DNA from: a virus
Taxonomy: Duplodnaviria > Caudoviricetes
Virus record (IMG/VR): IMGVR_UViG_3300012667_000297
Coordinates: 1 to 34,974 of that record
Strand: one strand, 5' to 3'
DNA length: 34,974 bases
This document shows positions 1,482 through 33,634 of the stretch, piece after piece (within the stretch, counting starts at the first letter, position 1; each line of letters begins with the position of its first letter). A program made the position numbers and the translations under genes. Under the pieces are notes generated by a model. The model saw only the letters and a list, made by a program, of their open reading frames with translations, was not told the origin of the DNA and ran no database searches.

Positions 1482-3401
1482 TTAATCTTCTTCTTCTACT
1501 TCTGAAGGTTTTACGGTTTCTGCAACTTTAGTATTATATTGTGTTAAAGATCCTCTAGTTTCAATTTCTCTAACTTTTTTTGCTTGAACTTCATCTAAAG
1601 ATGACGCTGTTATATTATTTTTTGTAACATTATATGTTACTGCTTTTAATTCTGGAACACCTTTAGAATTATCTACATAACTACCCATTAAAACAATATC
1701 ACCATATCTATTTTTTTCTGTAGAAGTAGCTACTAATTTAGGAGCATTTCCATAATTTTGTCTTTTAAATTCATTATCAAAAGCAGTTTGTAATACTGAT
1801 AATGCATTTTGATCTACATACTTATCATTAACTTTACCTGTTTTAGCAAATTCTAAAGCTCCTCTTGATATAGCATGTACAGCTCTTGTATCTTGTTCAA
1901 AACCTTTATCTCTAGGTACAGCTAAATAAGCTTTATCTACAATACCATCATCTTTAGTAGATACTGCTAATTTCCAACCAGCTTGTGCTGGACCAAAGAA
2001 ATCTACACCAGTATATGATGCATTTTTAGGAATATTTTTAACTTCTTCATTTGTTACTTTAGCATTAGAAGATTCATCTCCTTGTAAATAAAACTCCATA
2101 TTATGAATATCAGAGTTAGGACCCAACATTGCCTTATTCATACCTTGTGCAGTAGATTGTTGTAATTTAGTTGTAGTACTTCTTCTTTTTGCTACTTCTA
2201 CTGCATAATCATAAATTTGTTTTCTATAATTACCATCTGCAGGTGCAGGTAAATTTAACTCCTTAGATTTTTTAGCTAAAGCTGCAAATCCTTCATTTAC
2301 AGTTTGTTCTGCAGATTTACTAGGTAAAGCTGCCTTAATTGCAGATCCAAATATTGGAATATTTAAAATACCTGGACCAGAAGCATTATCAGCTTTAATA
2401 TTTATATTTTGTTTAGTAATATACTCTCCTTTATTATTAATAATGTTTCCTAAACCTAAATCATTTATTACAGTATCCATACTTACTAATTCAGGATTAC
2501 CTTGTTCATTAGTAGTAATAATATCAGCTTCTCTTTTTTCTTGATCTCTAGCAGAACTTAATGCTGTTGTTTTTACACCAGTAATCTCACCTATATCACT
2601 AAATATTTGATTAGAACCTGCAGCAAATAAATAATCAGAAACACCTTTCATTAATTGTTCAGGTGTTGCATTAGGATTTTGATATTGTAATAATTGTAAA
2701 TAATCTTGACCTTTTTGAGTTTGAATAAATTTATCAGCTTTTTGATTAGCTAAATTTCTAACTCTTTCATCTTTAACATATTTACCACTCTTACCCTTAG
2801 TATAAATATTGCCATCATTAGGATCTAAATATGAATTTTTAGAATCATAACCCATTTTAGCAATGTCTGCCATCTGTGCTCTAGCTTCAGAAGCATGGTC
2901 TTGTTTTTCACCCATGCCAGAATATCTAAATGGTTGTAATTCACCAGTTTCAGATATTAATGCTTTATTTCTATAAGGATCTTTATAAATAGCATAAGCA
3001 TCTCCTTTTTTAGCAGCATCTTCTTTATAAGTTTTATAATTAAGATAAGATTCTTCAAGTTCTTGTCTAACAGGATTATTAGCAAAATCTCTTTTAACTT
3101 GTTCTAATTCTCTATAAGCATTAGGATCTCCAGCGTATATCTTATTAGTAAGTTCATCAATCTTAGGTGCAAATTGTGCATCTAATTCTTGTTTCTTTTT
3201 AATATTAGATAAACCTAAATTAGGATCATTAATAGCTGGTACTTTAGTCATTAAATCTTTTAACTTATAAGTATCATCAATAGCAGCTTCATGTGCTTTT
3301 TGAGTTTGTGCTCCCAATGCACCTATAGCTTCAAAAGGCATAGGTACATATTGGGAAACATATTGTTGTTGTACTGAGGTATCAAAACGTGAACTAGGCA
3401 T
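1482..3401 (-). CDS. Virion cargo/ejection protein (cargo 2-like)
   Basis: Long ORF beginning QYVSQYVPMPFEAIG, helical and charged, lying between cargo 1 and the giant cargo gene. The ATG at 3401 is preferred over the track's TTG at 3407, which falls inside the promoter -7 box. Confidence 0.65.
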   Translation of the reverse strand: MPSSRFDTSVQQQYVSQYVPMPFEAIGALGAQTQKAHEAAIDDTYKLKDLMTKVPAINDPNLGLSNIKKKQELDAQFAPKIDELTNKIYAGDPNAYRELEQVKRDFANNPVRQELEESYLNYKTYKEDAAKKGDAYAIYKDPYRNKALISETGELQPFRYSGMGEKQDHASEARAQMADIAKMGYDSKNSYLDPNDGNIYTKGKSGKYVKDERVRNLANQKADKFIQTQKGQDYLQLLQYQNPNATPEQLMKGVSDYLFAAGSNQIFSDIGEITGVKTTALSSARDQEKREADIITTNEQGNPELVSMDTVINDLGLGNIINNKGEYITKQNINIKADNASGPGILNIPIFGSAIKAALPSKSAEQTVNEGFAALAKKSKELNLPAPADGNYRKQIYDYAVEVAKRRSTTTKLQQSTAQGMNKAMLGPNSDIHNMEFYLQGDESSNAKVTNEEVKNIPKNASYTGVDFFGPAQAGWKLAVSTKDDGIVDKAYLAVPRDKGFEQDTRAVHAISRGALEFAKTGKVNDKYVDQNALSVLQTAFDNEFKRQNYGNAPKLVATSTEKNRYGDIVLMGSYVDNSKGVPELKAVTYNVTKNNITASSLDEVQAKKVREIETRGSLTQYNTKVAETVKPSEVEEED

Positions 3402-3404
3402 ATA

Positions 3405-3435
3405 CAAATATAATTATTTAATTAGTTAGGACAAA
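3405..3435 (-). promoter_or_regulatory. Bacteroidota sigma-A-type promoter TTTG-N19-TATATTTG
   Basis: Minus strand reads TTTG tcctaactaattaaataat TATATTTG tat ATG, an exact match to the -33/-7 consensus TTTG-N19-21-TAnnTTTG. Confidence 0.8.
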
Positions 3436-3439: not shown

Positions 3440-6241
3440 TTATCCTAAATCATAACCTGCTTTTTTCATAGCAGCTTTAAATTGAGGATTGTTAAAATAT
3501 GATTGATACATAGCTAATGTTTTTTCATCCATTTTACCTTTTTTAGAATCCAACATTTGTTGAGAAACATTTTGACCAATACCTGCAATAGCTTCACCTT
3601 TACCAGATCTAGTTCTAGCTCTATTCTGAGCATTAGCAATAACTTCTTGCATAGCTAATTGAGTATTATACTGATTAGCTCTATTCTGAATTTCAGCATT
3701 AGTATTAGCATACTGTTGTCTTATTCTATCAATATCTTGAATATTTGAAGAAGTTAATCCTAATCTATTACTCATATATGCAGCAGCATTTCCACCTGAA
3801 GCTCCTCTAAGATTATACTCAGCAGCTTTAGCTTGTAACTTAGCATCTCTTATAGCAGCAGTAGGATCTACTTTTTCAGATTGCATTCTTTCATATTTTT
3901 CAATCTCAGGTTTATTATATCTTGATAAGTTATAAAGATTACCTGCATTTTGAACTAATCCCATACCAACTTGACCTGCTAAATTCTTCCAATTAAATCC
4001 TTCAGTTTCAGTTCCTGTTGTAGGTTTTATAGCATTAGGATTTAATGCAGTATCTGCATCCCAAGCTGATTTATTTAATCTAGCTGCATCCCAAGTATCT
4101 AAAGGTTTTCCAAATGTATTATATCTATCTGGAGCAAGTACATTAGTAAAATCAGGTTCTTGTTTAACTGATGTACCAGGAACAACAACATTTTCTCCTT
4201 CAGATTCATTAGGCATTGTTGGTACAAATTTTACAGAATCAGGTACTTTTATTCCACCTTTACTTAATTTAGGATATACTTTTAATCCTGAAGTATATGG
4301 TGCTCTTTGAGCAACAGGTTTAGCTTCAGGTCTGTTTGCAAGATATACTTCTTCATCAGGAAACTCAGTCATTCTAGTAGGTTCTACTTCTAAGTTTCTA
4401 TAATTAAAAGGTTGTTGCATTCTAACTCTTTCAACATCTAAATTTCTATAGTTAAAATTATTAGGTCTAGACATCATTCTAACATCTTCCTCAGTCATTG
4501 GTGTCATTCTAGTAGGTTCAACACCTAATGCTCTATAAGTAAATCTTGGAGGTATAGTACCACCATCAGGATATTGATTCATATATCCACCATAAGCTTT
4601 TTGAGGAAACTGTTTATTCCATTGCTCTTGGTAAGTTCCATATTTAGGATCGTTAATATATTGAAAAGTTTTAGGAGTAGCTACAGGATTCATTATAGGT
4701 TTAGGAGCTTCTTGACGTGGTGTAGGTTCTGTAAAGTTTTCCTCATTATAAGGAACCATTGTAGGTCTTGCAAATTTAACAGAAGGATGTGAAGGATCAT
4801 ATCCTGCATAACTTTGACTAAACTCACCTGAAATAGGTTTAGCAGCTCCTCTATTATATAAATTCATATATGCAGTATTTACTGCAGAATCCATACCTTG
4901 TTTTCCAATAGTAGGATATTTTAATCCAGATTTATATAAAGTCATACTATCTTTTTGAGCTTGCTCATATTCAGGTTTAGTTAAAGTAACTTTACCTCCA
5001 CCTGGATACATAGGAACATCACCTTTAAAATTATGATAAGGATTAGTCATTGCTGGATATTGTCCACCCATTGCATAAGTTGGATTACCTGCATTATCAG
5101 TATTATAATAAGGTAATTGAACTCCACCCATTGCCATCTTATTCATCATACCACCATATCTTACCATTGGCATTTCACCTTCAGCTTGTTCAGGTAATCC
5201 TTGAGGTTCCATTTGCTCATCATCCATAGAAGGTAATTGTACTCCCATCTTTTTAGCATAAGCAGCAACTTTATCTTTTTTTAATTGCTCTTGCATAGCA
5301 AAAAGCATATCACTATTTTTCATCTTAGCCATCATATTAAGTTTTAATGAAGCTTCACTCTTAGGATCTAAGTTACCTTTAGTAAAAAGTTTATCTTCTC
5401 TATTAGTATTATTACTAGCATTTAACTTAGCAAATGTTTTATTAGTTCCTGGCATTTTAAGTTTATCAGAAAAGATTCTAGTACCTGGAGCCATGTCAGT
5501 TTTAATACCACCATTAGAATGAGAAGCACCATTAAACTGTGTAAATTGACCATCAGGAGATACAGCATTTTCTTGTTTTTCAACTTCAGAATTTATTTGA
5601 CCAGTACCACCATTAGCATATTGAATACCTCCCATTGCAAACTGTTGTTGCATAAAAGGTTGTAGCATATTCATATATTCATTACCTCCACCTTGATTCA
5701 TAAACTGATTATATTTATTTAAACCTTGACCAAAACCTGAAGCATTAAAGTTTGCAGCTTGTGATTGCATTCCAGAACTCATAGGAGAACCAGCTTGACC
5801 ATAAGCCATAGCACCAATTTGTCCTGCAGTATTTAAAGCCATACCAGCACCTTGTGCCCAATCTTTACTTTCATTACCTTTACTTACTCCAGCACCTAAT
5901 CCTTTACCAGTCTGACTAATAGCAGTACCTGTAGCAGCAGGATTAATTACAGCACCACCTATTGCTCCTGCAGCATTACTAAACCCTCTAATAGAATCTT
6001 GTTCTCTCATTTCATCTTGAGTAGAGTTACCAGCTTTTTGTAAAGCATAGTATCCCTTATCAGTAATCTGATCAGTAGCACCCATAGTTACAGTATCTAA
6101 TAATCCTTCTCCTATTCCATAAGCAGCAGTACCAATTTGTTTACCAGCTTTATTTATTTTCTTTTTATCTCCTTTAGTTAAATTAAATATACCACCACTA
6201 TTATATTTAGGAACATAAGGAGTTTTTTTATTAGACTTCAT
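3440..6241 (-). CDS. Virion cargo protein 1-like (ejected protein) with many xxGG motifs
   Basis: 933 aa, directly downstream of the muzzle gene. It has an N-terminal Gly/Ala-rich hydrophobic segment, a conserved-looking block SEVEKQE...GASHSNGGI...IFSDKL, a low-complexity middle and a C-terminal Ala/Gln/Asn coiled coil. Confidence 0.7.
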   Translation of the reverse strand: MKSNKKTPYVPKYNSGGIFNLTKGDKKKINKAGKQIGTAAYGIGEGLLDTVTMGATDQITDKGYYALQKAGNSTQDEMREQDSIRGFSNAAGAIGGAVINPAATGTAISQTGKGLGAGVSKGNESKDWAQGAGMALNTAGQIGAMAYGQAGSPMSSGMQSQAANFNASGFGQGLNKYNQFMNQGGGNEYMNMLQPFMQQQFAMGGIQYANGGTGQINSEVEKQENAVSPDGQFTQFNGASHSNGGIKTDMAPGTRIFSDKLKMPGTNKTFAKLNASNNTNREDKLFTKGNLDPKSEASLKLNMMAKMKNSDMLFAMQEQLKKDKVAAYAKKMGVQLPSMDDEQMEPQGLPEQAEGEMPMVRYGGMMNKMAMGGVQLPYYNTDNAGNPTYAMGGQYPAMTNPYHNFKGDVPMYPGGGKVTLTKPEYEQAQKDSMTLYKSGLKYPTIGKQGMDSAVNTAYMNLYNRGAAKPISGEFSQSYAGYDPSHPSVKFARPTMVPYNEENFTEPTPRQEAPKPIMNPVATPKTFQYINDPKYGTYQEQWNKQFPQKAYGGYMNQYPDGGTIPPRFTYRALGVEPTRMTPMTEEDVRMMSRPNNFNYRNLDVERVRMQQPFNYRNLEVEPTRMTEFPDEEVYLANRPEAKPVAQRAPYTSGLKVYPKLSKGGIKVPDSVKFVPTMPNESEGENVVVPGTSVKQEPDFTNVLAPDRYNTFGKPLDTWDAARLNKSAWDADTALNPNAIKPTTGTETEGFNWKNLAGQVGMGLVQNAGNLYNLSRYNKPEIEKYERMQSEKVDPTAAIRDAKLQAKAAEYNLRGASGGNAAAYMSNRLGLTSSNIQDIDRIRQQYANTNAEIQNRANQYNTQLAMQEVIANAQNRARTRSGKGEAIAGIGQNVSQQMLDSKKGKMDEKTLAMYQSYFNNPQFKAAMKKAGYDLG
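4365..4545 (-). repeat. Three imperfect in-frame repeats F[TN]YR[AN]L[GDE]VE[PR][TV]RM
   Basis: Copies are FTYRALGVEPTRMT, FNYRNLDVERVRMQ and FNYRNLEVEPTRMT. The DNA word cattctagtaggttc recurs at about 4370 and about 4505. Confidence 0.85.
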
Positions 6242-6331: not shown

Positions 6332-9300
6332 TTATCTATCAGAAATATTAAATATTGATTTTACTGTGTGTATTATAAACCTTAAGTTAGGACTGTTATT
6401 ATAGTATAAGTCTACTATTGCCCACTTATCTCTAAGTCTTTCTCCAAAAGTTGTTCTAGTTAATTTACTAGAATCAAATAATGAATTAGTAGAAACAGGT
6501 GTAGTGTTATAGTTAAACTTATTTCTAGGTAACTGAACATTAAAAGATTGTTCTAGTTTTCTTAAATTGTTATTAGGAGGAGTTATTGTTAAATCAACCC
6601 AATCTGTATTTTGATATTGATTATAAACTCTTAACTTACTAAAAGTATTATCTCTTATTGGAACATCATCAGGATAAGTAGGAGTAGTAATAGTTCCTGG
6701 ATTAATATTTAAATCATCAGACCATTGTAAATTATCATTAATAGATTCAGTAATCCATTGTAAGTTATTAAATACTTTAGTATATAAAGGTTGTTCATTA
6801 GACAATAGTTTTAAAGTACTAGGATAAACAGTACCATAGAAATTACCATATTGTCCATAGTTATGTAAGTAAATTTTATTTCTTAAAGAATCAGAATTCA
6901 CATTACTTAATAAATATCTATTACTGTTAATGTATAAGTTTGGAGTAAATGAATAATAACTTACAAACTTATTTAATTGCTCAGAGAAAGTTATTGTATA
7001 AAATTCATCTGTTGTAGCAGGAACTGTATTATTTTTATTTAAGAATGTAATTAAGAATTCATTATGAGTATAATCATAAGTAGTTAATATACCTTCACCA
7101 ATTACAGGATTATCATGATTAATAATATTATCATGTAATTTTTTCATTAAGAAATTTCTTTGACCTAATGTATCAGATATTGGATTTGCAGTTTGACCAT
7201 TATATAAATATAATTTCTTACTTCTTATATCTAAGAATATTACTTGATTTTGAGATTTATTTACAGACCACTGATGATTAGTACCAACATCTAAATGATT
7301 ATATTCATGTCTTTCAATAGTGCTACCAGTACCTAATTTAATAGGAGTATTTACAGTTGTAGAATTTATCATAGCTACTGGATTAACAATTAAATATCCA
7401 ATACCTCTTTCCTGAATATAGTGTAATTGATTATTAAGTGCAACTACAGCATTAATAGCTCCATAGTTTCCTTCTACATCATAGTAGTTATTTGTTAAAT
7501 ATTGAGTCCAACTATCATCAATTTCATTATTAAATTTCTTTTCAGAATAATGAATTCTATTAATCCATTTATTAGATAATATAAAATCTAATGGTTTAGG
7601 AAAATACTTATTAATATTCTTTTCATTACTATGGTAAGATGCATAACCATAATCATCATATGAGCTATAAGCACTTCCATTTAAATTTACATCTACATGT
7701 GCACCATATCTTACTTGTTGGTTATTAGAATTAGTACAAGGAAAATAAAATATATTTCCAATATCAAATTTAATAATATCTCTTACTCCTCCACCAGGTT
7801 CATCGTTAGGATTATTACCAGTCCATCTATTTCTTTTAAATTCAGTACCTCCACCAATATTTTTTTTAATCTTATTTAAATCCCAATAATTTAAAAATAC
7901 ATCACCATTAAAAACTTTATGTGTAAGATTAATATTATTATTTAATAATTTTCTATTTCTATTTACAGGAATATAACTTCCACAAGCAATATATTCATTA
8001 GTAGTTCTAGCAGTATAAGTATTACCATTATATTGATTAGGGTTTGCTCTATAATAAAGAGCCATTATTTTAGCACCCATTTCTTGTTCACTGTTAAAAA
8101 AATAGTAACTATCTACCATTTGCTCAGTGTCAAAAGTTAACATAACAGATTGACCTCCAGTACCAGGAGTACCTCCTAAACCATCAAATACTGAAAACCT
8201 ATTATAAAAAGTATAATTTCCTATACCTGTATCTATTGTAGCATTTGAACCAGCAAACTGACCTGACTTTATAACTTTATTTAAATTTTGTTTTTGTTGA
8301 GAAGTTCTAGGATCTTGAAATATATTATTACCTGCATTATTATTATTTGAATTTTTATAAAAAACTCTTTGATCATAATAAAATAACATAAAGAAAGGCA
8401 TCTCTGAAGAATCAAATCCTGTTTGTAATGATGGTATTCTATCACCTACATAACTTCCAGGTAATGTACGACAAGCTGGTTCTGATCCTGAAGGATCATA
8501 AGTATTTTTTAACCACATGTCTAAGTTATCTCCAGTATCATCAGAATTAAAACCTATTCGATATCTTCCATTAGGTAATCCAGATTGAGCATTATAAAAA
8601 TTTATAGGTCTAACTTTAGATCTTAATAATAGTCTATCTCCTTCTTTAAAAGAATAACCATTAGTCATAAAATCAAAACTATCAAATGTAGTTATTCTAC
8701 TAGATGTTATAAATTCAGCATCTGATAATACATGTAAATAAGAAGTAGAACCAATAGGTGCTTGACTAAGTGTTTCAAAAGATTTTTGACTTGGATAAGG
8801 AGCGTATATATTTTGAAAAATACCACTACTTGAGTCTACTAAACCTCCTCCTAAAAAAGCAGTTTCACCAAAATTTTCAGCTACTGTATTAGTAACCATT
8901 CCTGTACCTAAAATAGTTTTATCAGCATCAGTTCTTTCAACTCTAACTATTTGATAACCACTAATTATATTTTTAACAGCACTAACATCTATTTTAAACT
9001 TTATACATAAAGCTTGTCCATAAACATTACTATTATATAAAAATGAATTTCTAAAATCATTAATACCTGCAGCAGTAGCAATAGGTCCTCTATTAGTTAA
9101 ATTACCATCACTATATCTAGGCATTTTAATATCACCTATCCATTGTACAAAATATGGACTTCCTTGTAAATCAAAAAACTGAATACCAAACCTATAAATT
9201 TCTTCATGTTGAAATCCTTTAAGAGTGGAAGTAAAATATGGATTTTTAGATAATCCAATACCAGTCATTGTATAAGTTTGATCAGAAGAATCTGAAGGAG

Positions 9301-11119
9301 CTGTAATTAAAGTAGTAGGGTTAGATGGTCCTTCTAAAGCTACATTTATAGTACCTCCATATCTATTCCATAATGGATTAGGTACTCCTTCATTAGCAAT
9401 TTGATTCATAGTCCAAGTAGAGTTATCACCTTCTGTAACTTCTAATCCTGATAATAATATTTCTTCAGTACCAAATTCATATTCAATATATTTACCTTTA
9501 CCTCCAACAATAGCTGATCCAGGTTTATAATATCCTGCTTTAATATATTCATCACCATTACTATCATAGTATTTATTAATACAATCTGCTGTTTGAGGTA
9601 AATCTATAGCTTCTTGTAAAGTATAATCATCTTCAGTATCAGTATTAGTTAACCATATTTTAGAATCTTCTGCTGCTCTAAAAGCTCTAGCATCAAACTT
9701 TTGACTAATATCTACAGTACTACCACCATAAACATTACCCCAGAATAATCTATTATCTTTAGTATCTACAGTTTTAGCATGTGTAAAACCTGAACTAATA
9801 GATAAATATTCTGTTAATTCCATAGTTGTTAAACTAGTTACAGAACTTAAAGTAAAATCTTTAGTTTCATAAGTACCAATATTTATTGGATCTGTAATAT
9901 ATATTTTAGGTAAATCAGTTTTACTATCTCTATAAAGTATTACATATTCTATATAATCAAAGTTAGTATCAATATTATTTATCATCCAAGTAATACTACA
10001 ACCTGAATTACCAATACTAGAAGGACCTTCATAGGTTCTGTAATTACCTGATACAGGATTAATTACTAAGTTGACTAAATTAGATGTTGCTGAATAATTA
10101 CTTATTAAAGTATTTGCTTTTTTTAATCTATATGCTAATTCATAAGTACCTTGATCTAACGAACCTGTAGAATTAATAGTTTTTAAAATAGGTATTTCAA
10201 ATGATACTGATGGGAATACAGATAATAAAGCTGGATCAAAAGCCATTATTTGTGGATTAGCCACATTAAGAGTTCTTATCTTATTATAAAAATCTGTCCA
10301 ATAAATTCTTTTAATTTCATCAGATTCATATCTTCCTGTTATAGCAGTAGGAGCTACAGGATGTTGTTCAGTAAAATCTAAATAGTTAGCATAAATTAAT
10401 GATAATGTGTGTTCTCTAGTAATATCATTTATTACTAATTTCCATATACTACCAACTCCAGTAAATGAATCTGGGCTAGGTACTAATCCAGTAAAATGTT
10501 CTACTAATAAGAATATTTCTTCTCTAATAAAAGTAGAACCTATTATTTTAAAAGTATTATTTGTAGGAACATTTGCACTTTGAGTATTTGAAAATACTCC
10601 TTCATTGTTTTCAAACTGAAGAGTATATTTAATATCAGTAGTAGTAGTGTTAACTGTAATAACAAATGGAGTATTGTTTCCTGTTGAACTACAAGTTTTA
10701 TAATTAGGTTGTTGATATAAAATTACATAATCATCAGAGTAAGCTACAGCAAATGTAGCAGTAGGTTTATCTATTACACTATCATAACAGTTAGATAATT
10801 TTTGTATAACTGCAGCAATAGATGAACCTTGAGTTCCTTGAGAAATAGTAATAGGTACAGTAGTTTGTCCATTAATAGTAATTGTAACAACAGCATTATT
10901 AGTACCTGTAAGTTCTACTACTTTTAATTTATAAATACCTTGAAATGTAGGAAAAGTAATTCCACATTCATTACCTTTAATATTAACTAATGACCCAGTA
11001 GAACCACCTAATTCAGTAATAGCTCTAAAGTTTAAAGCTTGTAAATAAGAATCTTTTGCTTGTATAGTTTTAGATAAGTCAGATGACATACCTCCATTAA
11101 ATGTATTTATTGACTCCAT
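6332..11119 (-). CDS. Muzzle / tail stabilisation protein (P22 gp10-like, crAss-type)
   Basis: 1595 aa, beta-rich. Motifs include N-terminal NTFNGGMSSDLSK...ALNFR, IYWTDFYNKIRTLN, KDNRLFWGN, GFQHEEIYRFGIQF, NRIHYSEKK and GERLRDKW. Position after ring and IHF genes matches crAss-like phages. Confidence 0.85.
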   Translation of the reverse strand: MESINTFNGGMSSDLSKTIQAKDSYLQALNFRAITELGGSTGSLVNIKGNECGITFPTFQGIYKLKVVELTGTNNAVVTITINGQTTVPITISQGTQGSSIAAVIQKLSNCYDSVIDKPTATFAVAYSDDYVILYQQPNYKTCSSTGNNTPFVITVNTTTTDIKYTLQFENNEGVFSNTQSANVPTNNTFKIIGSTFIREEIFLLVEHFTGLVPSPDSFTGVGSIWKLVINDITREHTLSLIYANYLDFTEQHPVAPTAITGRYESDEIKRIYWTDFYNKIRTLNVANPQIMAFDPALLSVFPSVSFEIPILKTINSTGSLDQGTYELAYRLKKANTLISNYSATSNLVNLVINPVSGNYRTYEGPSSIGNSGCSITWMINNIDTNFDYIEYVILYRDSKTDLPKIYITDPINIGTYETKDFTLSSVTSLTTMELTEYLSISSGFTHAKTVDTKDNRLFWGNVYGGSTVDISQKFDARAFRAAEDSKIWLTNTDTEDDYTLQEAIDLPQTADCINKYYDSNGDEYIKAGYYKPGSAIVGGKGKYIEYEFGTEEILLSGLEVTEGDNSTWTMNQIANEGVPNPLWNRYGGTINVALEGPSNPTTLITAPSDSSDQTYTMTGIGLSKNPYFTSTLKGFQHEEIYRFGIQFFDLQGSPYFVQWIGDIKMPRYSDGNLTNRGPIATAAGINDFRNSFLYNSNVYGQALCIKFKIDVSAVKNIISGYQIVRVERTDADKTILGTGMVTNTVAENFGETAFLGGGLVDSSSGIFQNIYAPYPSQKSFETLSQAPIGSTSYLHVLSDAEFITSSRITTFDSFDFMTNGYSFKEGDRLLLRSKVRPINFYNAQSGLPNGRYRIGFNSDDTGDNLDMWLKNTYDPSGSEPACRTLPGSYVGDRIPSLQTGFDSSEMPFFMLFYYDQRVFYKNSNNNNAGNNIFQDPRTSQQKQNLNKVIKSGQFAGSNATIDTGIGNYTFYNRFSVFDGLGGTPGTGGQSVMLTFDTEQMVDSYYFFNSEQEMGAKIMALYYRANPNQYNGNTYTARTTNEYIACGSYIPVNRNRKLLNNNINLTHKVFNGDVFLNYWDLNKIKKNIGGGTEFKRNRWTGNNPNDEPGGGVRDIIKFDIGNIFYFPCTNSNNQQVRYGAHVDVNLNGSAYSSYDDYGYASYHSNEKNINKYFPKPLDFILSNKWINRIHYSEKKFNNEIDDSWTQYLTNNYYDVEGNYGAINAVVALNNQLHYIQERGIGYLIVNPVAMINSTTVNTPIKLGTGSTIERHEYNHLDVGTNHQWSVNKSQNQVIFLDIRSKKLYLYNGQTANPISDTLGQRNFLMKKLHDNIINHDNPVIGEGILTTYDYTHNEFLITFLNKNNTVPATTDEFYTITFSEQLNKFVSYYSFTPNLYINSNRYLLSNVNSDSLRNKIYLHNYGQYGNFYGTVYPSTLKLLSNEQPLYTKVFNNLQWITESINDNLQWSDDLNINPGTITTPTYPDDVPIRDNTFSKLRVYNQYQNTDWVDLTITPPNNNLRKLEQSFNVQLPRNKFNYNTTPVSTNSLFDSSKLTRTTFGERLRDKWAIVDLYYNNSPNLRFIIHTVKSIFNISDR

Positions 11120-18318: not shown

Positions 18319-18358
18319 AAATTTATGTAAATTTTATTAATTAAATTTTTGAAATAAT

Positions 18359-19039: not shown

Positions 19040-19043
19040 TATA

Positions 19044-19208
19044 TTAGTTTTCTTCTACAACTTCAACTTCAGTATTTTCTACTTGAGCTAATGCTAATTT
19101 TTGTACTTCTAAGATTAATTTTAAAGATGCTTCAGCAGGTAATTTTCCTAATCCAGCTAATACTAAATTAACTTCTTGTTCTGTAAATTCAAATGTAAAT
19201 TTTTTCAT
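19044..19208 (-). CDS. Small helical protein (possible tail fibre chaperone), not in the ORF track
   Basis: 54 aa, MKKFTFEFTEQEVNLVLAGLGKLPAEASLKLILEVQKLALAQVENTEVEVVEEN. It fills the gap, has an A-rich leader and has its own promoter candidate. Confidence 0.75.
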   Translation of the reverse strand: MKKFTFEFTEQEVNLVLAGLGKLPAEASLKLILEVQKLALAQVENTEVEVVEEN

Positions 19209-19230
19209 ATATTATAATTTTAAAGTTTAG

Positions 19231-20195: not shown

Positions 20196-20198
20196 AAA

Positions 20199-23061: not shown

Positions 23062-23072
23062 TATATTTTATT

Positions 23073-26793: not shown

Positions 26794-27471
26794 TTATTCG
26801 TTAGTATTATTAATTAAAGGATTAAATGTTTGAGACCTCTTACCTTCTATTCCTTCTAATGCTATTTTAACAGCTTCATCAATTATTTCACTATGCATGT
26901 GACTAGATAATTCAGAAGTAACATTTGTTGTTAAATCAATTTTATTAGGTTGTTTAATATATCTCATTCTATATTCAATTATTTGACAAGATGATATTAA
27001 TTCAACTCTACCTTTTTCCATTAATCTAAGAACAATTACATCATCTGGTTTTCCAAAAGGGTCTTTAATCCTTTTAGAAAATTCAGAGTGATTTATTGGA
27101 ATAACTTCAGCAAAACTATTAGTTTCTGACCCACATATTTCACATAAAAGTTTACATCTTTCTTGAATAGTAAACCAATGATCAGTAGGTAGATTTACAA
27201 ATCTTGCACTAGCGTCAATATTATCTGAAGCATAAGGTTGTGTAGTTAAGACTGCATTTACAACTATATTTTTTAAATCCTCAATCCTTTTCTGAGTTTC
27301 TTCAAAAGATTGTCTTTTTAAGTTGGTAAACCCATATCTTTGTTTAACAATCCTCTCTTGAGCATTATTTAAAATTAAGTCTATTTCTTCAGGTAAAAAG
27401 TTAGGATAATTTAATGAATCCATTTTATCCATCCTAAACTTAAACTCTGTATGCATCTCTGCTACTGTCAT
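26794..27471 (-). CDS. Tail ring protein (ring 3/4-like head-tail connector)
   Basis: 225 aa with MTVAEMHTEF...DKMDS...PEEIDLILNNAQ, FEETQKRIEDL, YRMRYIKQP and HSEIIDEAVKIAL; a conserved crAss-like gene two positions after the MCP. Confidence 0.75.
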   Translation of the reverse strand: MTVAEMHTEFKFRMDKMDSLNYPNFLPEEIDLILNNAQERIVKQRYGFTNLKRQSFEETQKRIEDLKNIVVNAVLTTQPYASDNIDASARFVNLPTDHWFTIQERCKLLCEICGSETNSFAEVIPINHSEFSKRIKDPFGKPDDVIVLRLMEKGRVELISSCQIIEYRMRYIKQPNKIDLTTNVTSELSSHMHSEIIDEAVKIALEGIEGKRSQTFNPLINNTNE

Positions 27472-28274
27472 TACTCAACTTCTTTTTTTAGTTTCTTAGG
27501 TTTTAACTTATTTTCTAATGCTAATCTTACAGATTGATTCTTCATATCTGTTAAGTAACCTACAACTTCATCTGTAGAACTACCTAATAAATCTTCACCA
27601 TTATAGTAATAAGTACCTTTCTTTTTAATGATTTCTTTTTCTAACAAAGCTTCTAACAATGCTTTAGTTGGAGTATCTTTAGAAGTAGATAATCTTAAAT
27701 ATTCTTTAGGATCACGTTTTACCTCTTTATATAACTCAGCTTTAATCATTGTTTCAGACATTGTATCTACTCCACGTTTACCAAAGATTCTTAGTAATCC
27801 TCTTTTCTCTTCAATAGTTGCCGTAGTAAATGCTTCAATAGCTGCAAATTCAAACTCCATTTTAGCAGCTTCAATTTTACTTGCTGCTTCAGGATCGTAA
27901 ATATAAAATTTCGCTGTTGAATTACCAGGAACGTCATGTTCACTATTTGCAATCCAATCATGTTCTAACAACATCTTATATTTAATCTCATCTAATGGAG
28001 TTACCACATTAAATATTGTAATTTTATCATTTTTTAATCGTACTTCTAAATCTCCCCAAAAATCAGAATTTCTTTTATTCAAAGTTCCTTTTGGTACATT
28101 TAAAAGTTCTTCATAATGAGCTTCATCTTTAATACTTAATCCTGTTTTATAAACACCATTTTGACTAAGTTGTGCTCCCATTATTACAGTAATAGTTTTA
28201 TTGTAATAAGATTGACCTGAAAATTTATTTTTAATAATAGGTCTGATGACATACTGTTTAAATCCTTCTTCCAT
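27471..28274 (-). CDS. Conserved crAss-like protein immediately downstream of the MCP
   Basis: 267 aa with YKTGL, SDFW, PLDEIKYKML, AKFYIYD and YYYNGEDLLG..DEVVGYL.D.KNQ; identified by synteny. Confidence 0.7.
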   Translation of the reverse strand: MEEGFKQYVIRPIIKNKFSGQSYYNKTITVIMGAQLSQNGVYKTGLSIKDEAHYEELLNVPKGTLNKRNSDFWGDLEVRLKNDKITIFNVVTPLDEIKYKMLLEHDWIANSEHDVPGNSTAKFYIYDPEAASKIEAAKMEFEFAAIEAFTTATIEEKRGLLRIFGKRGVDTMSETMIKAELYKEVKRDPKEYLRLSTSKDTPTKALLEALLEKEIIKKKGTYYYNGEDLLGSSTDEVVGYLTDMKNQSVRLALENKLKPKKLKKEVE

Positions 28275-28349: not shown

Positions 28350-29801
28350 TTAGTTTAATGAACTTGCATCTAAGATCAATTGAGCTGCATCAGATGGGTC
28401 ACGTAACATGATTCCACATTCTGTCATAGCTTCAAAAGTGTATCCATCTACTGAACTAGCAGAAGATCCATTTTTCTTAGGACCATAAGGACCATACATT
28501 CCTTCAATATAAGTAGTTACCATTTCACGGTCTTTAGAATATACTTTTTGAATATTTGGTTCTCCTTTATTGTAAGATTTGAAATTCAAGAAAGTAGCTT
28601 TGTAAGACTCTGCTGGTTTACCAGTTTGAGGATGTAATAGACGATTTCTCACAGTATCATTGTAAGGTTTGTATTCTTTCAAGGTAATTTTATCACCATT
28701 CAAACCTGTGTAAGTAATGAACTGACCAGATAAAGTTAATTCTTGTCCTTGACCACCAATGAATTTGCTATCTACTAAGTTGAAAGCAGATGCTGAACGC
28801 TTCATAGCTTGATCAAATAAATTCATGAATTCCCTTCCACAAAGTGCAACGTATTCACGAGGACCATCTTCAGTACCGTTATATGCTAAATCTGACATGA
28901 AATCACGAATAGTTTTTTCAGTCAAAGTAGTATAAAGACGTTTGTTACCTGGAGCAATTTGAGCTTCTAATCCAGCACCAGAATAAACTGTATTACCAGA
29001 TGCACCTTTAATGTCAGTAGTACCGTTAGCTTTAACATTAGACTCACCAAACATTAACATTACTTCGATTTCATCCATGAACTGTTTCCAAAATTCCCAC
29101 TCAGCATATTTTACCCAAGTGTTAGTTTTTTCATTAGTTTCAGGGTTTAACATTGAAATAACCATTACACGGCTATGAGCAGCACCAGTAACAGAATATT
29201 TTTTACGCAATGTAGACATGAAGTTTTCTAACATCATTGGAGTAGCATAATGAGTTTCTCCAGAAGTACGAGAATGATCATGTTCTACGATGTTGTATTC
29301 TTTAGAAACTTCTTTACCTACTGCAACTAATACTGCAGGAATTGATTTAGTAACATCAGCAGTAACTAATTGACAAGTTAAGATATAGTCATTTCCATCG
29401 TAGTAAGGTTCTGCCATTACACGAGCTTTGTATTCAGGGCTGTCAAATAAAATAACATCACCTTCTGTGAACCATTTTTCTCCAACACCAAATTTAAAAG
29501 TAGTAGCATTTACACCTACTGATCCTGCTGCTTCAAATACTGCACGAGTAATAGAAATAGCTTTACGAGAATCACCAATGATATTCCAACGATATTGGAT
29601 ACCATCAATTTCTTTAGATTTACCCATTCCACCTGTTAAGAAAGAAAGAGCATTTTTATAACCATTTTGTTTGTTATAAATACGAGTAATAACTTGGCTA
29701 GCAATAGCTGGCTCAGTTAAAAAGAATGTGGACAAATGAGAGTCTTGAGTAAGACCAGCATGCCAATTCATGTTTGTTATTTGTAATGGACTAATTTGCA
29801 T
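28350..29801 (-). CDS. Major capsid protein (crAss-like, HK97 fold)
   Basis: 483 aa with WHAGLTQDSHL, QYRWNIIG, ENFMSTLRKKYSVTG, SGAGLEAQI, GQFITY.GLNGDKITL, HPQTGKPAESYK and SSVDGY. It shows high-expression codon bias, is preceded by a scaffold-like gene and is followed by a terminator. Confidence 0.92.
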   Translation of the reverse strand: MQISPLQITNMNWHAGLTQDSHLSTFFLTEPAIASQVITRIYNKQNGYKNALSFLTGGMGKSKEIDGIQYRWNIIGDSRKAISITRAVFEAAGSVGVNATTFKFGVGEKWFTEGDVILFDSPEYKARVMAEPYYDGNDYILTCQLVTADVTKSIPAVLVAVGKEVSKEYNIVEHDHSRTSGETHYATPMMLENFMSTLRKKYSVTGAAHSRVMVISMLNPETNEKTNTWVKYAEWEFWKQFMDEIEVMLMFGESNVKANGTTDIKGASGNTVYSGAGLEAQIAPGNKRLYTTLTEKTIRDFMSDLAYNGTEDGPREYVALCGREFMNLFDQAMKRSASAFNLVDSKFIGGQGQELTLSGQFITYTGLNGDKITLKEYKPYNDTVRNRLLHPQTGKPAESYKATFLNFKSYNKGEPNIQKVYSKDREMVTTYIEGMYGPYGPKKNGSSASSVDGYTFEAMTECGIMLRDPSDAAQLILDASSLN

Positions 29802-29843: not shown

Positions 29844-30959
29844 TTATAATAAGCCTTTATCTAAAGCTTGTCTAAAAGCACTGAAGTTACCTGAAGATTT
29901 TTCTGATCCAAAACCATCAGACTGACCAGTCTTTAATTTAGATCTACCATCTTTAAAGTTAGATAACTTACTTGCTAACTCAGAGTTAACTTTAGTTTTA
30001 ACTTGTCTTTCTAACTTACTTAAGTCCCAATCATTCATTGCTAAATAAGCATACATGAATTGAGCATTAGTGTTAGTTTCATTATGTTTCTGTAATCCTG
30101 TCTTACCAGTCTTATCAGGTTTCATAATAAAGTCCCAAAGATTATCTTTCATTTTAGGGGTTAATTTAAACCCTTGAATTTCTTCTTTGGCATATAAGTC
30201 AGCTTTGAAATCTTCATATTGTTTCTTAGCTGCTGCTCTTTGTTCAGCTTCATACTTCTTTTGAGATTCTACCAATTGTTCTTGATAACCTTTCTCATAG
30301 TTTTGTAATTTGCTTAATGCACTTTTGGCTTTCTTTTCTAAAATACCAGAAACTTCATATGTATCTAAAGTTTCTTCTATTTCTTCCATATCTTCTCCTT
30401 GTGCCTTTAAGTATTCTCTTAATACAATCTTTTGAGTAGTGTCAGTGTCTATTTCAAAATCACTCCAAGTTACTTCATTATAATATGCATTAATAAAATC
30501 TTTAGGATTACCTCCTGCTTCAACAAATTCTACTAACTTGTGAACATCATCTGGTAAACTCTTTTTATAGTTTTCCACTTCACGCTCAACAGTAGAACTC
30601 ATTAGTTTTTTTAAACCATCTTCAGAATCTTCAAAAGTTTCTTCATCATAGTCTACTAAACCTTTATCTCCTAGCCAACTTGCAAATACTTTGAGAGAAG
30701 AACCCTCTTCAGTAGTTTCTTGTTTAGATTCAACCTTAGCAACTTCTTTAGTTTCTTTGGTTTCTTCTTTAGGTAGATCTTTAACAACTTCTTTAGTTTC
30801 ATCAACTGTAGGTGTTACATCTTCTAGTTCTGGAACTAGTGGTTGTGCTACTGAATTGTTCTCTTGAAAATCACTAGAGAACTCATCATTAAACTGCATT
30901 TCTAGACCTTCACCAAACGGTGTGTCAAGAATATTAAATTCTTTTTTTTCCTTACTCAT
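29844..30959 (-). CDS. Scaffold-like protein upstream of the MCP
   Basis: 371 aa with a highly acidic disordered N-terminus, helical coiled-coil body and basic C-terminus; conserved position before the MCP. Confidence 0.7.
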   Translation of the reverse strand: MSKEKKEFNILDTPFGEGLEMQFNDEFSSDFQENNSVAQPLVPELEDVTPTVDETKEVVKDLPKEETKETKEVAKVESKQETTEEGSSLKVFASWLGDKGLVDYDEETFEDSEDGLKKLMSSTVEREVENYKKSLPDDVHKLVEFVEAGGNPKDFINAYYNEVTWSDFEIDTDTTQKIVLREYLKAQGEDMEEIEETLDTYEVSGILEKKAKSALSKLQNYEKGYQEQLVESQKKYEAEQRAAAKKQYEDFKADLYAKEEIQGFKLTPKMKDNLWDFIMKPDKTGKTGLQKHNETNTNAQFMYAYLAMNDWDLSKLERQVKTKVNSELASKLSNFKDGRSKLKTGQSDGFGSEKSSGNFSAFRQALDKGLL

Positions 30960-31068: not shown

Positions 31069-32904
31069 TTATTTAGTGTTTTTTAATTTTTCATCTTGAT
31101 ATTGATCATAAGCTTGATAAGCATCTGAAACTTTACCTGCTTTAAAAAGTTTGTTAGCTGTATTAACAGCTATTTGTGAACTTTTCCATTTTTCAGGATT
31201 AATGTAGGGTATATTATTTTTAAGTAGTTCAACAGGCTTTGCTAACATATTATCTATATTTTTACCACCCATCTTTACATAAGACTGATAAGCATCGTAT
31301 GCTTTATTTAAAACTTTTTCTTGTGTTTTAGCAGGTAAATATTGAGCAGCCTTAACTGTATTTTGAAGCATCCCAAAACCACCTGTAATAACTTTACCAC
31401 TTTTACCTATTTTACCAATCACGGGTAATGCACCTAAAACTTCTAAAGTTGTTTCTCCACTAAATCCTGTCTTCTTAGCTGCTCTATAAACATCATCCCA
31501 AGAAGATAATCCAGTAGGATCAAATACTTCAAAAAGATTTTCCCCTGTAGTATCTCCATCTTCTTCATAATGTACTTTAGTATCTATTAATCCTTTTTTA
31601 ATCATGTCTTCAGCTTCTATTTGAGATTTAGGATAAGTATTTGACGTAGTTCTTCTAGATCCTTCAAAATCTATTTTAGGTTTATCATCAAATTTTAATT
31701 TTGAATTTGATTTATATAAGTCATTTCTATTTATTTTATATTTTTTATTAAAATCTAAATCTTTTGAAGATTTGGTTCTTTCTAAAATACTTTTAGTTTT
31801 TTCAAATGATTCAGGAAAACTAAATCCGTAAGAATCATGTGAATCTCCTGTAGCTAAAGGACCAGGTTGTGTATAATCATTAAACTCACCACCATTTTCA
31901 AACTTTTGTATACCTCCGTATCTATGTTGTTGAGGTTGTTGACTTTGATAATACTCATTAAAAGATTTATTAATTAATTCATCAGTATCTTTAGGAGATA
32001 AGTTTTTACCTGTTTTAAAATAATCTCTTAATGCAGGTTTATATTCTTCTATTGTTTTTGCAAATTCTTCTCCTTTAATTATAGAATTTAATTCTTCTTG
32101 ATTTAAGTTTTTACTTTGTATATGTTTATCTGCTAAATTAGATATTAAATTGGGAACATTTAAATTTGTATCTGAATATTGACCAAGTACCTTATAATGC
32201 TCAGGGTCTTGTTTAAACTTATAATATTCACCATATTTAGGTTCTACATTTTTTTCTACAAATTCACGAGTAGCTCCAAATGCTGCATCTTTATTTCCTT
32301 TAAATTTAAATAAATTTTGAGCATATAATTCTTTAAATACATTTTGTTTTATCTCATCTGTATTATAAGCACGAGTAGGAGTATTTTCAACATTACCACT
32401 TTTAGTTCTATATAAATCAGCAGTTTGTTGTTGACCTTCACCTGCAACATCTAAAACAAATCTTCTAAGATTAGCAGATTTATCTCCTGTCATAGGTATT
32501 TCTTTATAAGGTTTATAGTTAGCAGGATTTAATTGGTAATTAGTTCCTGTCTTTTCATCCCAAGCTAATACACCTTCTAATCCTTTTTGAGGATGACTAA
32601 TAGGTGCATAGTATTGATTTGCCCCATAAGTATAAGCTCTATATGAAGGAAGTTCAGATAAATTTTTAGGAGTTTCTACAGTATTATAAAGACCTGAATA
32701 CAAATCTTCTTCTACTCTAGGACCAACCTTTTGTTGTGTTTTTGAAAAATCAAATTCATTATCTTCTTTTATTCCACCATCTTTAAATTTTTGATAACTA
32801 GTATTATAGTCATTTACCATGTCACGATAAGACATATCTTTGTTAGCCTTTCTGTAAGACTTCATCAATTCTATTCTTTCTTTTACTGGTAACTTATTAT
32901 ACAT
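31069..32904 (-). CDS. GG-motif modular protein, probable minor virion cargo
   Basis: 611 aa with a short helical leader ending KFKDGG, a second junction HRYGGIQKFENGG, and a C-terminal FDPTG...WDD...LGALPVIGKIGK segment. Confidence 0.6.
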   Translation of the reverse strand: MYNKLPVKERIELMKSYRKANKDMSYRDMVNDYNTSYQKFKDGGIKEDNEFDFSKTQQKVGPRVEEDLYSGLYNTVETPKNLSELPSYRAYTYGANQYYAPISHPQKGLEGVLAWDEKTGTNYQLNPANYKPYKEIPMTGDKSANLRRFVLDVAGEGQQQTADLYRTKSGNVENTPTRAYNTDEIKQNVFKELYAQNLFKFKGNKDAAFGATREFVEKNVEPKYGEYYKFKQDPEHYKVLGQYSDTNLNVPNLISNLADKHIQSKNLNQEELNSIIKGEEFAKTIEEYKPALRDYFKTGKNLSPKDTDELINKSFNEYYQSQQPQQHRYGGIQKFENGGEFNDYTQPGPLATGDSHDSYGFSFPESFEKTKSILERTKSSKDLDFNKKYKINRNDLYKSNSKLKFDDKPKIDFEGSRRTTSNTYPKSQIEAEDMIKKGLIDTKVHYEEDGDTTGENLFEVFDPTGLSSWDDVYRAAKKTGFSGETTLEVLGALPVIGKIGKSGKVITGGFGMLQNTVKAAQYLPAKTQEKVLNKAYDAYQSYVKMGGKNIDNMLAKPVELLKNNIPYINPEKWKSSQIAVNTANKLFKAGKVSDAYQAYDQYQDEKLKNTK

Positions 32905-33106: not shown

Positions 33107-33634
33107 TTATCCTTTTAGTTCATGATCAAATAATCTCATTGCAATCTTATCTTCACCAAATGCTTCTAATTGATCAACTAAGTTTTGTACTTTTCCTAAT
33201 TCTTCTTGTTGCTCAGTTAAGAATTTCATAGCTAACTGATATAATAAATGATTACCGTATTTCATAGCATGTGAAGCTAACTCATTACATTGTTGGGTAA
33301 CTAATATTTCATGAGCATATGATTGTTTAATAACATCAGGTAAACCTGTAAATGTTTGAGGTGGTTCTTTCAATGCTGGAGTCTTAGGTGTAATACCCAT
33401 ATCCAATAAGAAAGACTTAGCCCAACCTGCGTGAACCATTTCTCCTTCTGCATCTTTTTCCCAAACTGCTGCAGCACCTAAATACCCATGGTCATTTAAC
33501 CACATTGACATTGCAGTATAAAATCTTGAAGAATATTCTTCTTGTTCAATTCTAAAGTTTAATATATCAATACATTCCTTACTTACAAAAGGATTTGTCT
33601 TTGCTACTGGGGGTGTTAGTTTTAAACTACTCAT
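33107..33634 (-). CDS. ftnA: Non-haem ferritin (FtnA-like)
   Basis: 175 aa. It aligns by eye with bacterial FtnA at LNFRIEQEEYSSRFY..MS.W, GAA, EGEMVH, HEILVT..NELA and EQQEE; the ferroxidase A/B-site ligands are present. Confidence 0.9.
   Translation of the reverse strand: MSSLKLTPPVAKTNPFVSKECIDILNFRIEQEEYSSRFYTAMSMWLNDHGYLGAAAVWEKDAEGEMVHAGWAKSFLLDMGITPKTPALKEPPQTFTGLPDVIKQSYAHEILVTQQCNELASHAMKYGNHLLYQLAMKFLTEQQEELGKVQNLVDQLEAFGEDKIAMRLFDHELKG

What the first reader, a model, noticed from the sequence alone, without database searches (positions are those of the whole stretch)
4253..6196. Repeated [FYML]-x-x-G-G / YGG motif punctuates cargo protein 1 and recurs in an unrelated protein 26 kb away: candidate virion packaging or processing code
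Seen in sequence: the 933-aa cargo protein carries ten such motifs, often in tandem pairs about 7-9 residues apart. They are KYNSGG (GG at 6191-6196), QFAMGG-IQYANGG (5627, 5606), VRYGG-MMNKMAMGG (5150, 5123), TYAMGG (5063), MYPGGG (4994), KAYGG-YMNQYPDGG (4586, 4559) and KLSKGG (4253). They sit at boundaries between otherwise unrelated segments. The same motif and tandem arrangement appear in the non-homologous 611-aa protein (KFKDGG; HRYGG-IQKFENGG), but I see no comparable series in the MCP, scaffold or ring proteins. Established: di-glycine sites are the cleavage signal of Ulp1/adenain-clan viral maturation proteases (adenovirus protease, ASFV pS273R). Inference: the motif is either a maturation-protease site that cuts cargo polyproteins into separately ejected peptides, or a short linear tag that docks cargo in the procapsid. 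Either would let the phage load variable effector modules. No protease is visible in this window.
Basis: partly seen in the sequence, partly recalled or inferred. Interest (0 to 1): 0.85.

Follow-up and report, generated by a model that had tools for sequence, protein, structure and literature searches.

The report
Gly-Gly seams of shuffled crassvirus cargo
A short peptide ending in Gly-Gly marks the joints between swappable protein modules in two genes of this uncultured crAss-like phage, and related strains gain and lose whole modules at exactly these joints; it is likely a cutting site that frees the modules the phage would pack and inject, but no cut and no protease have been shown.

Summary
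The motif is real: 10 sites against 1.8 expected in the 933-aa cargo protein 1 (C1), 725 against 166 in 108 homologues. Its full form is a 13-residue pair, [KRA][YH]GG-x-[IVM][PQ][KR][YF]xxGG, also found in five large ORFs of a distant termite-gut crassvirus. The 611-aa protein is an optional gene: a constant 44-aa leader plus modules joined at this seam (34 alleles, 32 module families, including cell-wall enzymes, ADP-ribosyltransferases and metallopeptidases). Contigs from two studies drop one module in frame, seam to seam. It is not a general packaging code: C2 and the virion RNA polymerase lack it. No adenain/Ulp1 protease or ThiF occurs in 5 near-complete relatives, and a small zincin fails co-occurrence. 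My re-analysis of published crAss001 virion gel spectra finds 11 of 13 tested proteins near full mass, but not C1 or C2. That tilts towards cutting (0.45) over an uncut docking tag (0.38). I found no description in print (10 searches). This scan noted the same tag earlier on at least eight other crassvirus genomes.

The parts
3440..6241 (-). Cargo protein 1 (crAss001 gp45 homologue), 933 aa
   Evidence: Directly after the muzzle gene; domain match to gp45 481-558 and to PF25725 by ESM features; 108 homologues
6191..6205 (-). Motif YNSGG closing the basic N-terminal leader of C1
   Evidence: consensus PKYxxGG
5606..5641 (-). Tandem seam FAMGG-IQ-YANGG before the portal-binding domain
   Evidence: G204-G205 conserved in 90% or more of 109 rows
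5219..5596 (-). CARG1-like folded domain (aa 216-341), portal-bound in crAss001; contains a structural SH-x-x-GG
   Evidence: block pLDDT 71-96
5123..5161 (-). Tandem seam RYGG-MMNK-MAMGG after the domain
   Evidence: 31 of 133 HSP ends fall at aa 360-379
5063..5077 (-). Motif YAMGG
4994..5008 (-). Motif YPGGG opening a variable module
4559..4597 (-). Tandem seam AYGG-YMNQ-YPDGG
4253..4267 (-). Weak motif LSKGG at a conserved GG
3452..3991 (-). Conserved C-terminal helical region of C1 (aa 751-930)
31069..32904 (-). Optional accessory cassette-array gene (611 aa) between portal/ferritin and scaffold
   Evidence: Present in 16 of 48 informative MCP-anchored loci; 34 alleles
32773..32904 (-). 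Constant 44-aa leader ending in KFKDGG, predicted capsid-targeting sequence
   Evidence: 117 clusters at 50% identity, 108 of 114 full-length leaders end in the motif (the profile contained it)
31927..32772 (-). Module D (function unknown)
   Evidence: First in the window and L011, second in P0109 and P0110; skipped in frame in contigs of runs X2 and X6
31888..31926 (-). Full 13-residue seam HRYGG-IQKFENGG; the DNA crossover lies at its Phe codon
31072..31887 (-). Module AF, itself a mosaic
1482..3407 (-). Context: probable cargo protein 2 (by gene order only); no GG at all
6332..11119 (-). Context: muzzle protein
27471..28274 (-). Context: gp33-like core gene, no catalytic residue set
28350..29801 (-). 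Context: major capsid protein, one SFLTGG site
29844..30959 (-). Context: probable scaffold, one invariant GG
   Evidence: identity by gene order
33634..34830 (-). Context: portal protein (C-terminal part; the gene runs off the window)

Best explanation
The motif is the seam of a modular cargo system: its DNA copies are where related phages gain, lose and reorder whole modules in frame, and its peptide is likely a recognition site at which a still unidentified protease cuts C1 and the leader-tagged accessory protein into separate pieces that would be packed and ejected. Shown: the motif is enriched, conserved, sits at module borders, and is the crossover point in DNA. Inferred step 1: short homology (about 20-40 nt) between seam copies drives the exchange, without a dedicated recombinase. 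Inferred step 2: the 44-aa leader (or, in C1, the portal-binding domain) brings the polyprotein into the prohead. Inferred step 3: a protease reads hydrophobic-[PQE]-K-[YFH]-x-x-G-G and cuts inside it (for example between the two Gly) rather than after GG, because Pro is tolerated after GG. Inferred step 4: freed modules (cell-wall enzymes, ADP-ribosyltransferases, metallopeptidases, membrane-channel pieces) leave through the narrow tail one by one.
For: (1) In the published crAss001 virion gel (Shkoporov 2018, PMC6235969, source-data peak lists), my mass fingerprint finds 11 of 13 tested proteins above all 100 shuffles in a band near their full mass. These include the 12-copy portal (93 kDa, 11 vs 1.8) and the 6-copy muzzle (17 vs 4.0). 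The 12-copy, 90.8-kDa gp45 is at chance in all 13 bands (0-4 vs 0.2-6.3), although it has 25 usable tryptic peptides. (2) The two gp45 pieces resolved by cryo-EM lie about 420 A apart on opposite sides of the portal (Bayfield 2023). Each sits between motif copies (209/263 and 427/562). (3) Folded payloads start at once after the GG: LysM starts at residue 46 after GG 43-44. Unrelated modules are chained in changing positions (8 of 12 repeated families occur at more than one position). (4) F and GG vary only at synonymous positions while the two x codons change freely; the one broken GG seen has an intact partner. (5) phi14:2 gp081, annotated as a virion protein by MS, is a C1-domain-like stretch plus two HExxH modules at such seams. 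(6) Leader plus short site is the layout of T4 and SPN3US propeptides (PMC10052503, passages).
Against: (1) The portal-bound gp45 model 425-552 runs through A-F-G-G (425-428), so that copy is not cut in or after its GG. (2) gp46, which has no motif, is also missing from the gel; band 10 (about 58 kDa) gave a failed spectrum and may be it. No gp45 fragment was found either, but no band between 35 and 15 kDa was excised, faint bands may have been skipped, and disordered proteins run oddly. (3) No protease follows the motif: C48, C5 and ThiF are each 0 of 5. The small zincin was not found in phi14:2 or ProJPt-Bp1, and is present in phi13:2, which has no motif-rich ORF. (4) The fixed 8-9 spacing of the pair across distant clades suits one binding element. 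(5) Some copies lie 4-12 residues from the C-terminus, where a cut frees nothing useful. (6) Mosaic joints also occur inside modules.
Confidence: 0.45

Rival explanations
1. Uncut docking or hinge tag: the 13-residue pair is a short linear motif that binds a prohead protein (scaffold, portal wing or an adaptor). It ties disordered cargo to the prohead many times over and sets the order of ejection; modules swap at it because a joint there keeps each module tagged.
For: Fixed pair geometry with two aromatic anchors from lake phages to ProJPt-Bp1. AFGG is ordered at the start of the portal-bound gp45 segment. Pro is allowed at -2 (48 of 431) and +1 (11 of 431). Terminal copies exist. No protease tracks the motif. 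Peptides 275-300 and 307-320 of gp45 stay in virions.
Against: Full-length gp45 is missing from the gel bands. C2 and the RNA polymerase proteins lack the tag, yet their crAss001 homologues are in virions, so it is not needed for loading. Twelve uncut chains must thread a 25-45 A portal channel (inference).
Confidence: 0.38
2. DNA seam only: the peptide is a flexible linker whose sequence persists because seam copies are homogenised by recombination, with no protein-level reader.
For: Accessory-gene seams share rare codons (TAC 7 of 9 vs 14% genome-wide; AAG 6 of 6 vs 17%), so they are copies of one DNA stretch. Crossovers map to them.
Against: Changes follow the reading frame: x codons vary at all positions, F and G only at third positions. 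C1 copies share no DNA beyond the Gly codons. The pair survives between phages whose MCPs are 29% identical.
Confidence: 0.1
3. Ubiquitin-like or adenain-like route: a C48/C5 or JAB protease cuts after GG, and a ThiF enzyme could activate the new C-terminal Gly-Gly.
For: crAss001 encodes ThiF (gp76, E 8e-16) and a JAB-like protein (gp77, E 5e-4). Several alleles end in YGG plus a short tail.
Against: ThiF, C48 and C5 are each 0 of 5 in near-complete close relatives; no JAB hit in 89 of 111 ORFs of G002. Pro after GG occurs; that these enzymes cut GG-Pro poorly is recalled.
Confidence: 0.05

Closest known systems
Cargo protein C1 (gp45) of Bacteroides phage crAss001 (Bayfield et al. 2023, PMC10172136; Pfam crAss_CARG1 PF25725)
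   Same: Same gene position, homologous portal-binding domain, same GG motif in the form A[FY]GG / FAxGG.
   Different: The paper treats gp45 as one chain threaded through the portal and has no occurrence of 'cleav', 'proteoly', 'protease' or 'peptidase'. gp45 alone is not significant for my pattern (3 vs 1.3), and the order of two sub-motifs in the domain differs.
Polyvalent proteins of phages and conjugative elements (Iyer et al. 2017, PMC5512222)
   Same: Chains of unrelated effector domains (ART-PolyVal, zincin-like metallopeptidases, peptidoglycan enzymes) proposed to be injected and possibly processed.
   Different: Here each joint carries one conserved peptide and DNA seam and a constant leader; 'linker' and 'glycine' do not occur in that paper's text. 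Most modules have no Pfam family.
T4 capsid-targeting sequence / gp21 and SPN3US gp245 (AXE) prohead-protease propeptides
   Same: N-terminal leader ending in a short site on internal, ejected proteins (PMC10052503 passages).
   Different: Different motif; sites are internal and repeated between modules. The crAss001 MCP (peptides 8-493) and portal (33-771) look unprocessed, and no prohead protease was found.
Adenain, ASFV pS273R and Ulp1 di-glycine processing (recalled)
   Same: Hydrophobic-x-x-G-G look.
   Different: No C5 or C48 gene in 5 relatives; Pro tolerated after GG; the motif is longer and paired.
Lambda tape-measure protein gpH
   Same: Ejected protein with FATGG (733-737) and YATGG (778-782) near the region where about 14 kDa is removed; site and enzyme are unknown (PMC12617516 passages).
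   Different: No homology to the C1 domain by HMM; a cut at FATGG would remove about 12 kDa; a lead only.
Integron cassette arrays; Rhs and CDI swappable tips (recalled)
   Same: Modules exchanged at a conserved border.
   Different: Seams are in-frame coding sequence that tolerates synonymous change, all modules are translated as one chain, and no integrase turned up in the G002 Pfam scan.

Membership tests
Crassvirales-like structural module | crAss-type MCP, portal, ring proteins and muzzle in the known order | tested here: met
   PHROG 11589, 6547, 28748; MCP 28-40% identical to crAss-like records; CrAss_Ring_1, _2, _3_4 and crAss_MUZ in relative G002
Crassvirus cargo protein C1 | Gene directly after the muzzle | tested here: met
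Crassvirus cargo protein C1 | CARG1 portal-binding domain | tested here: met
   hhalign 255-339 to gp45 481-558, 34% identity, E 8e-4, probability 25; ESM features 0.93, 188 shared, PF25725 cluster; tblastn to the same ORF in Suoliviridae and Fpv phages. Weak: the Pfam scan itself gave no hit.
Crassvirus cargo protein C1 | Present in the virion and ejected | not testable with these tools
   Uncultured phage; shown only for crAss001 gp45
Adenain/Ulp1 (C5/C48) substrate | Cognate cysteine protease in the genome | tested here: not met
   0 of 5 relatives (96-100% complete) for PF02902 and PF00770; the window's own genome is partial; the controls were weak (1 and 2 of 14)
Adenain/Ulp1 (C5/C48) substrate | Cut after GG, no Pro at the next residue | tested here: inconclusive
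   Pro follows GG at 11 of 431 unique C1 sites and 1 of 153 leader-family sites: depleted but allowed
Ubiquitin-like ThiF/JAB conjugation | ThiF (E1) and JAB genes in every motif-bearing genome | tested here: not met
   ThiF 0 of 5 (control 12 of 14); present in crAss001
Prohead-protease propeptide system (T4, SPN3US type) | N-terminal leader ending in the site | tested here: met
   108 of 114; partly circular, since the profile held the motif
Prohead-protease propeptide system (T4, SPN3US type) | Phage prohead protease; MCP and portal processed | tested here: not met
   No such Pfam family in 89 of 111 G002 ORFs; crAss001 MCP and portal found near full length
Prohead-protease propeptide system (T4, SPN3US type) | Cleavage shown in virions | tested here: inconclusive
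   Full-length gp45 absent from 13 bands, no fragments seen
Polyvalent proteins (Iyer 2017) | Several unrelated effector domains in one chain, drawn from the ART, metallopeptidase and cell-wall sets | tested here: met
   ART-PolyVal (P0123 below cut-off; P0221 and P0232 above), YkuD+LysM, SLT, glucosaminidase, DUF6782 and Tox-MPTase4 (both below cut-off). 11 of 90 family members had any Pfam hit; the window's own allele has none.
Polyvalent proteins (Iyer 2017) | Delivered with the phage DNA | not testable with these tools
   Only the analogue phi14:2 gp081 is annotated as MS-detected
Integron cassette array | Tyrosine integrase and non-coding attC sites | tested here: not met
   No integrase family in the G002 scan; seams are coding and vary synonymously

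The most novel reading that the evidence does not exclude
Crassviruses run a plug-and-play injection system in which one 13-codon element works twice: as the DNA site where effector cassettes are shuffled and as the protein site that loads and releases them. The same aromatic-x-x-Gly-Gly signal is the unknown processing site of ejected proteins in other tailed phages, lambda gpH included, read by a protease class not yet recognised.
Probability: 0.15. Interest if true: 0.92.

Novelty: new variant of a known kind. Interest (0 to 1): 0.68.

Why it matters
Crassviruses are the most abundant gut phages and are common in water, yet how their cargo is loaded and ejected rests on one model in which gp45 spans head and tail uncut. 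If the motif is a cut site, that model changes: the head and tail pieces would be separate products, and an unknown maturation protease exists. Either way, the leader-plus-seam grammar points to a large, fast-shuffling set of candidate injected effectors (32 module families in 34 alleles of one clade, most with no known family). It also offers a defined handle for loading foreign proteins into Bacteroidetes phages. The question is cheap to test on cultured crAss001, and it suggests a candidate site for the long-unmapped cut in lambda gpH.

Tried and rejected
Protease candidates. (a) ThiF/JAB: in crAss001 only, ThiF 0 of 5 relatives. (b) C48 and C5: 0 of 5 each. (c) A 130-aa HExxH...E protein upstream of the terminase. 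It was found in 28 of the 80 MCP-anchored loci (many loci do not reach that far), FpV4, cr53_1, phi13:2 and PhiCrAssBcn4. In the crAss001 record its frame is broken and the stretch is one base shorter than in 28 related records. It was not found in phi14:2 or ProJPt-Bp1, so I rejected it as the general reader. Its model is confident (pLDDT 93), but fold searches named nothing; the best sequence hit was aureolysin, E 0.036. (d) The HExxH domain of the giant RNA polymerase protein: in all four relatives and crAss001 gp47, but none found in the large ProJPt-Bp1 ORFs. (e) The gp33-like core gene: found in four distant references, but no conserved catalytic set; the Atlas gave no named family. Complex prediction of the leader with the gp33-like protein and scaffold 85-371 gave no verdict (score 0.00); it is no evidence either way. 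PDB sequence searches with C1 and its profile found nothing, not even gp45; fold searches with the whole model were dominated by long helices. The C1 domain HMM does not match lambda gpH or any ProJPt-Bp1 cargo ORF. No module pair was seen in both orders under my family clustering; the window's D-AF against H-D in P0109 is only a partial reversal. No gp45 fragment was found in any gel band. Weak joints (side under 30, or 'between not known') were dropped. Literature: 10 searches found no description of the motif. Yutin 2018 was not held. Figures are not held, so Extended Data Fig. 3 of Bayfield 2023 (gp45 peptide coverage), which bears directly on cutting, was not seen; its supplement 1 is a scan without text.
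Full report
Setting. The window is the structural half of an uncultured crAss-like phage, with all genes on the minus strand. It is the whole assembly held. Runs that hold its accessory region are mostly from lakes and other fresh water. The 933-aa ORF follows the muzzle gene, like crAss001 gp45. Its folded domain (aa 216-341) aligns with the portal-bound part of gp45 and falls near PF25725 by language-model features, although Pfam itself gave no hit. I accept it as cargo protein 1 (C1).

All coordinates are right. The pattern occurs 10 times against 1.78 expected; plain GG is barely enriched. In 108 homologues it occurs 725 times against 166. The logo of 431 unique sites is hydrophobic-[PQ]-K-[YFH]-x-x-G-G-[MIV], with a spacing peak at 8-9 between successive copies. 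The complete unit is a 13-residue pair, [KRA][YH]GG-x-[IVM][PQ][KR][YF]xxGG. It occurs in 72 of 108 C1 homologues and, as A[YH]GGxV[PRQ]R[YF]xxGG, in five large ORFs of Azobacteroides phage ProJPt-Bp1, whose MCP is 29% identical. A weight matrix trained only on the accessory family and ProJPt-Bp1 gives 23 hits in 5,503 aa of C1 and leader proteins, against 4 in 117,457 aa of all other ORFs of four near-complete relatives and the window. Of the 23, 19 are in C1, and four of those are the structural SH-x-x-GG of the domain. C2 and the giant RNA polymerase proteins have none, so this is not a code for all cargo. Alignments to homologues break at the motifs: 75 of 133 HSP ends lie within 8 aa, against 14.4% expected.

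The 611-aa protein is the clearer case. The gene lies between portal and scaffold in 16 of the 48 MCP-anchored loci that reach that far (80 fetched), and in 1 of 4 whole relatives. It is a constant 44-aa leader ending in KFxxGG, followed by one to three modules joined by the pair. In 34 distinct alleles I count 62 modules in 32 families; 8 of the 12 families seen more than once occur at different positions. Examples: the window is D-AF, L011 D-A, P0110 B-D, L005 A, L054 J-A, L019 G-B-C and P0124 Z-G. Joints also occur inside modules, and no pair was seen in both orders. A profile of the leader finds 117 clusters at 50% identity; 108 of 114 full-length ones end in the motif, and downstream copies number 103 against 19. 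Named payloads are LysM plus L,D-transpeptidase, SLT, glucosaminidase, ART-PolyVal and metallopeptidases; 79 of 90 scanned members have no Pfam hit. A related layout fills the same slot in the gut phage cr53_1, and phi14:2 gp081, annotated as a virion protein by MS, carries two HExxH modules at such seams.

The seam is also a DNA crossover site. Internal seams keep rare codons (TAC 7 of 9, AAG 6 of 6, against 14% and 17% genome-wide), so they descend from one DNA stretch. But F and G vary only synonymously while the x codons change freely, which points to selection on the peptide; C1 copies share no DNA beyond the Gly codons. Contigs of two studies (X2, X6) skip exactly 885 nt, module D in frame, from the Phe codon of the leader seam to that of the internal seam. 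The X2 contig appears to be the source of P0109 and is not counted as further support; the X6 contig is short (238 nt, depth 3.6).

Cut or docked? Bayfield et al. 2023 (I read parts 2-4 of 7, term passages and the text supplement) resolve gp45 214-245 in the tail and 425-552 on the portal, 420 A apart, and assume one chain. Both pieces lie between motif copies, but the second starts with A-F-G-G and runs on through it. Shkoporov et al. 2018 (term passages and source-data file) cut 13 bands from a virion gel and deposited the MALDI peak lists. My fingerprint finds gp47 and gp50, gp49 and gp44, gp20, gp26, gp22, gp25, gp23, gp32 and gp36, each above all 100 shuffles and near full mass, with minor components seen beside major ones. 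gp45 is at chance in every band, as is gp46. The 13 proteins were picked from the 39; contaminant masses were recalled. gp46 (60 kDa) could be the failed 58-kDa band; no unassigned band lies near 90 kDa. No fragments were found, but nothing between 35 and 15 kDa was excised. This is indirect and moves my odds only moderately towards cutting.

No protease tracks the motif. ThiF, C48 and C5 are each absent from five relatives 96-100% complete. Pfam on 89 of 111 ORFs of G002 gave one weak peptidase hit, a 134-aa HExxH...E protein upstream of the terminase. It is widespread, but was not found in phi14:2 or ProJPt-Bp1 and is present in phi13:2, which has no motif-rich ORF in the 70 kb read. Pro follows GG at 11 of 431 sites, which fits poorly with a cut after GG. 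Drobysheva et al. (bioRxiv 2020.03.07.982082, passages) suggest a zincin for the RNA polymerase polyprotein only. A host enzyme or an unrecognised fold remains possible.

Verdict. Shown: a conserved paired motif at module borders of C1 and of an optional leader-tagged cassette array, and in-frame module exchange at its DNA. Inferred: loading by the leader, cutting inside the motif (0.45) or uncut docking (0.38), and ejection of the modules. It works like a polyvalent protein (Iyer 2017, abstract and passages) with a T4-style targeting leader, but fails the protease tests for the adenain/Ulp1, ThiF/JAB and prohead-protease systems. Ten literature searches, plus term passages of a 2023 Crassvirales review, gave no description. 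Lambda gpH carries FATGG and YATGG near its unmapped cut; this is a lead only. Earlier notes of this scan report the same tag on at least eight other genomes and mostly lean to docking; they are not independent evidence.

Noticed in passing
L081:288-593 (crAss001 MH675552, + strand): An unannotated small HExxH gene lies opposite the annotated gp2. Its frame is broken in this record, which is one base shorter over the stretch than 28 related Kehishuvirus records; PhiCrAssBcn4 annotates the intact 101-aa gene. Sequencing slip or real loss is open.
   Followed up: partly
L083:10240-10644 (G002) and 27 other loci: A conserved 130-aa gluzincin-like protein (PHROG 1365 and 1233) lies just upstream of the terminase genes in many crAss-like phages; role unknown.
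   Followed up: yes
window 29844-30959: The probable scaffold has an invariant Gly-Gly (F145-VEA-G149-G150) in 47 of 47 homologues; a helix turn or a single motif copy.
   Followed up: no
window 33107-33634: A ferritin-like gene (Pfam E 3e-19) sits between portal and scaffold. A 175-aa or shorter 126-130-aa ORF fills this slot in most relatives, and some have neither.
   Followed up: no
L082:31394-35804 (crAss001 gp76-gp79): ThiF plus JAB-like cluster in crAss001, absent from this clade.
   Followed up: partly
L125:27948-41440 and L130 (ProJPt-Bp1): Five large ORFs carry more than 30 motif sites, mostly as perfect 13-residue pairs; the best system for defining the motif.
   Followed up: partly
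L139:143-2704 (lambda gpH 733-737 and 778-782): FATGG and YATGG flank a 40-aa stretch near the unmapped gpH cut.
   Followed up: partly
P0111-P0114, P0133; L067: Other cassette-array families with different leaders share modules with the 611-aa protein and carry the same seams, so modules move between gene families.
   Followed up: no
L001 and L049: These contigs have an MCP 100% identical to the window's but a different, 177-aa accessory allele and a different scaffold N-terminus.
   Followed up: no
window 15124-24502: A run of tail-fibre-like and collagen-repeat genes that differs wholly among close relatives.
   Followed up: no
L121:33828-34850 (cr53_1): A reverse transcriptase is annotated next to a tail gene, as in diversity-generating retroelements; the record shows in-frame stops under table 11.
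   Followed up: no
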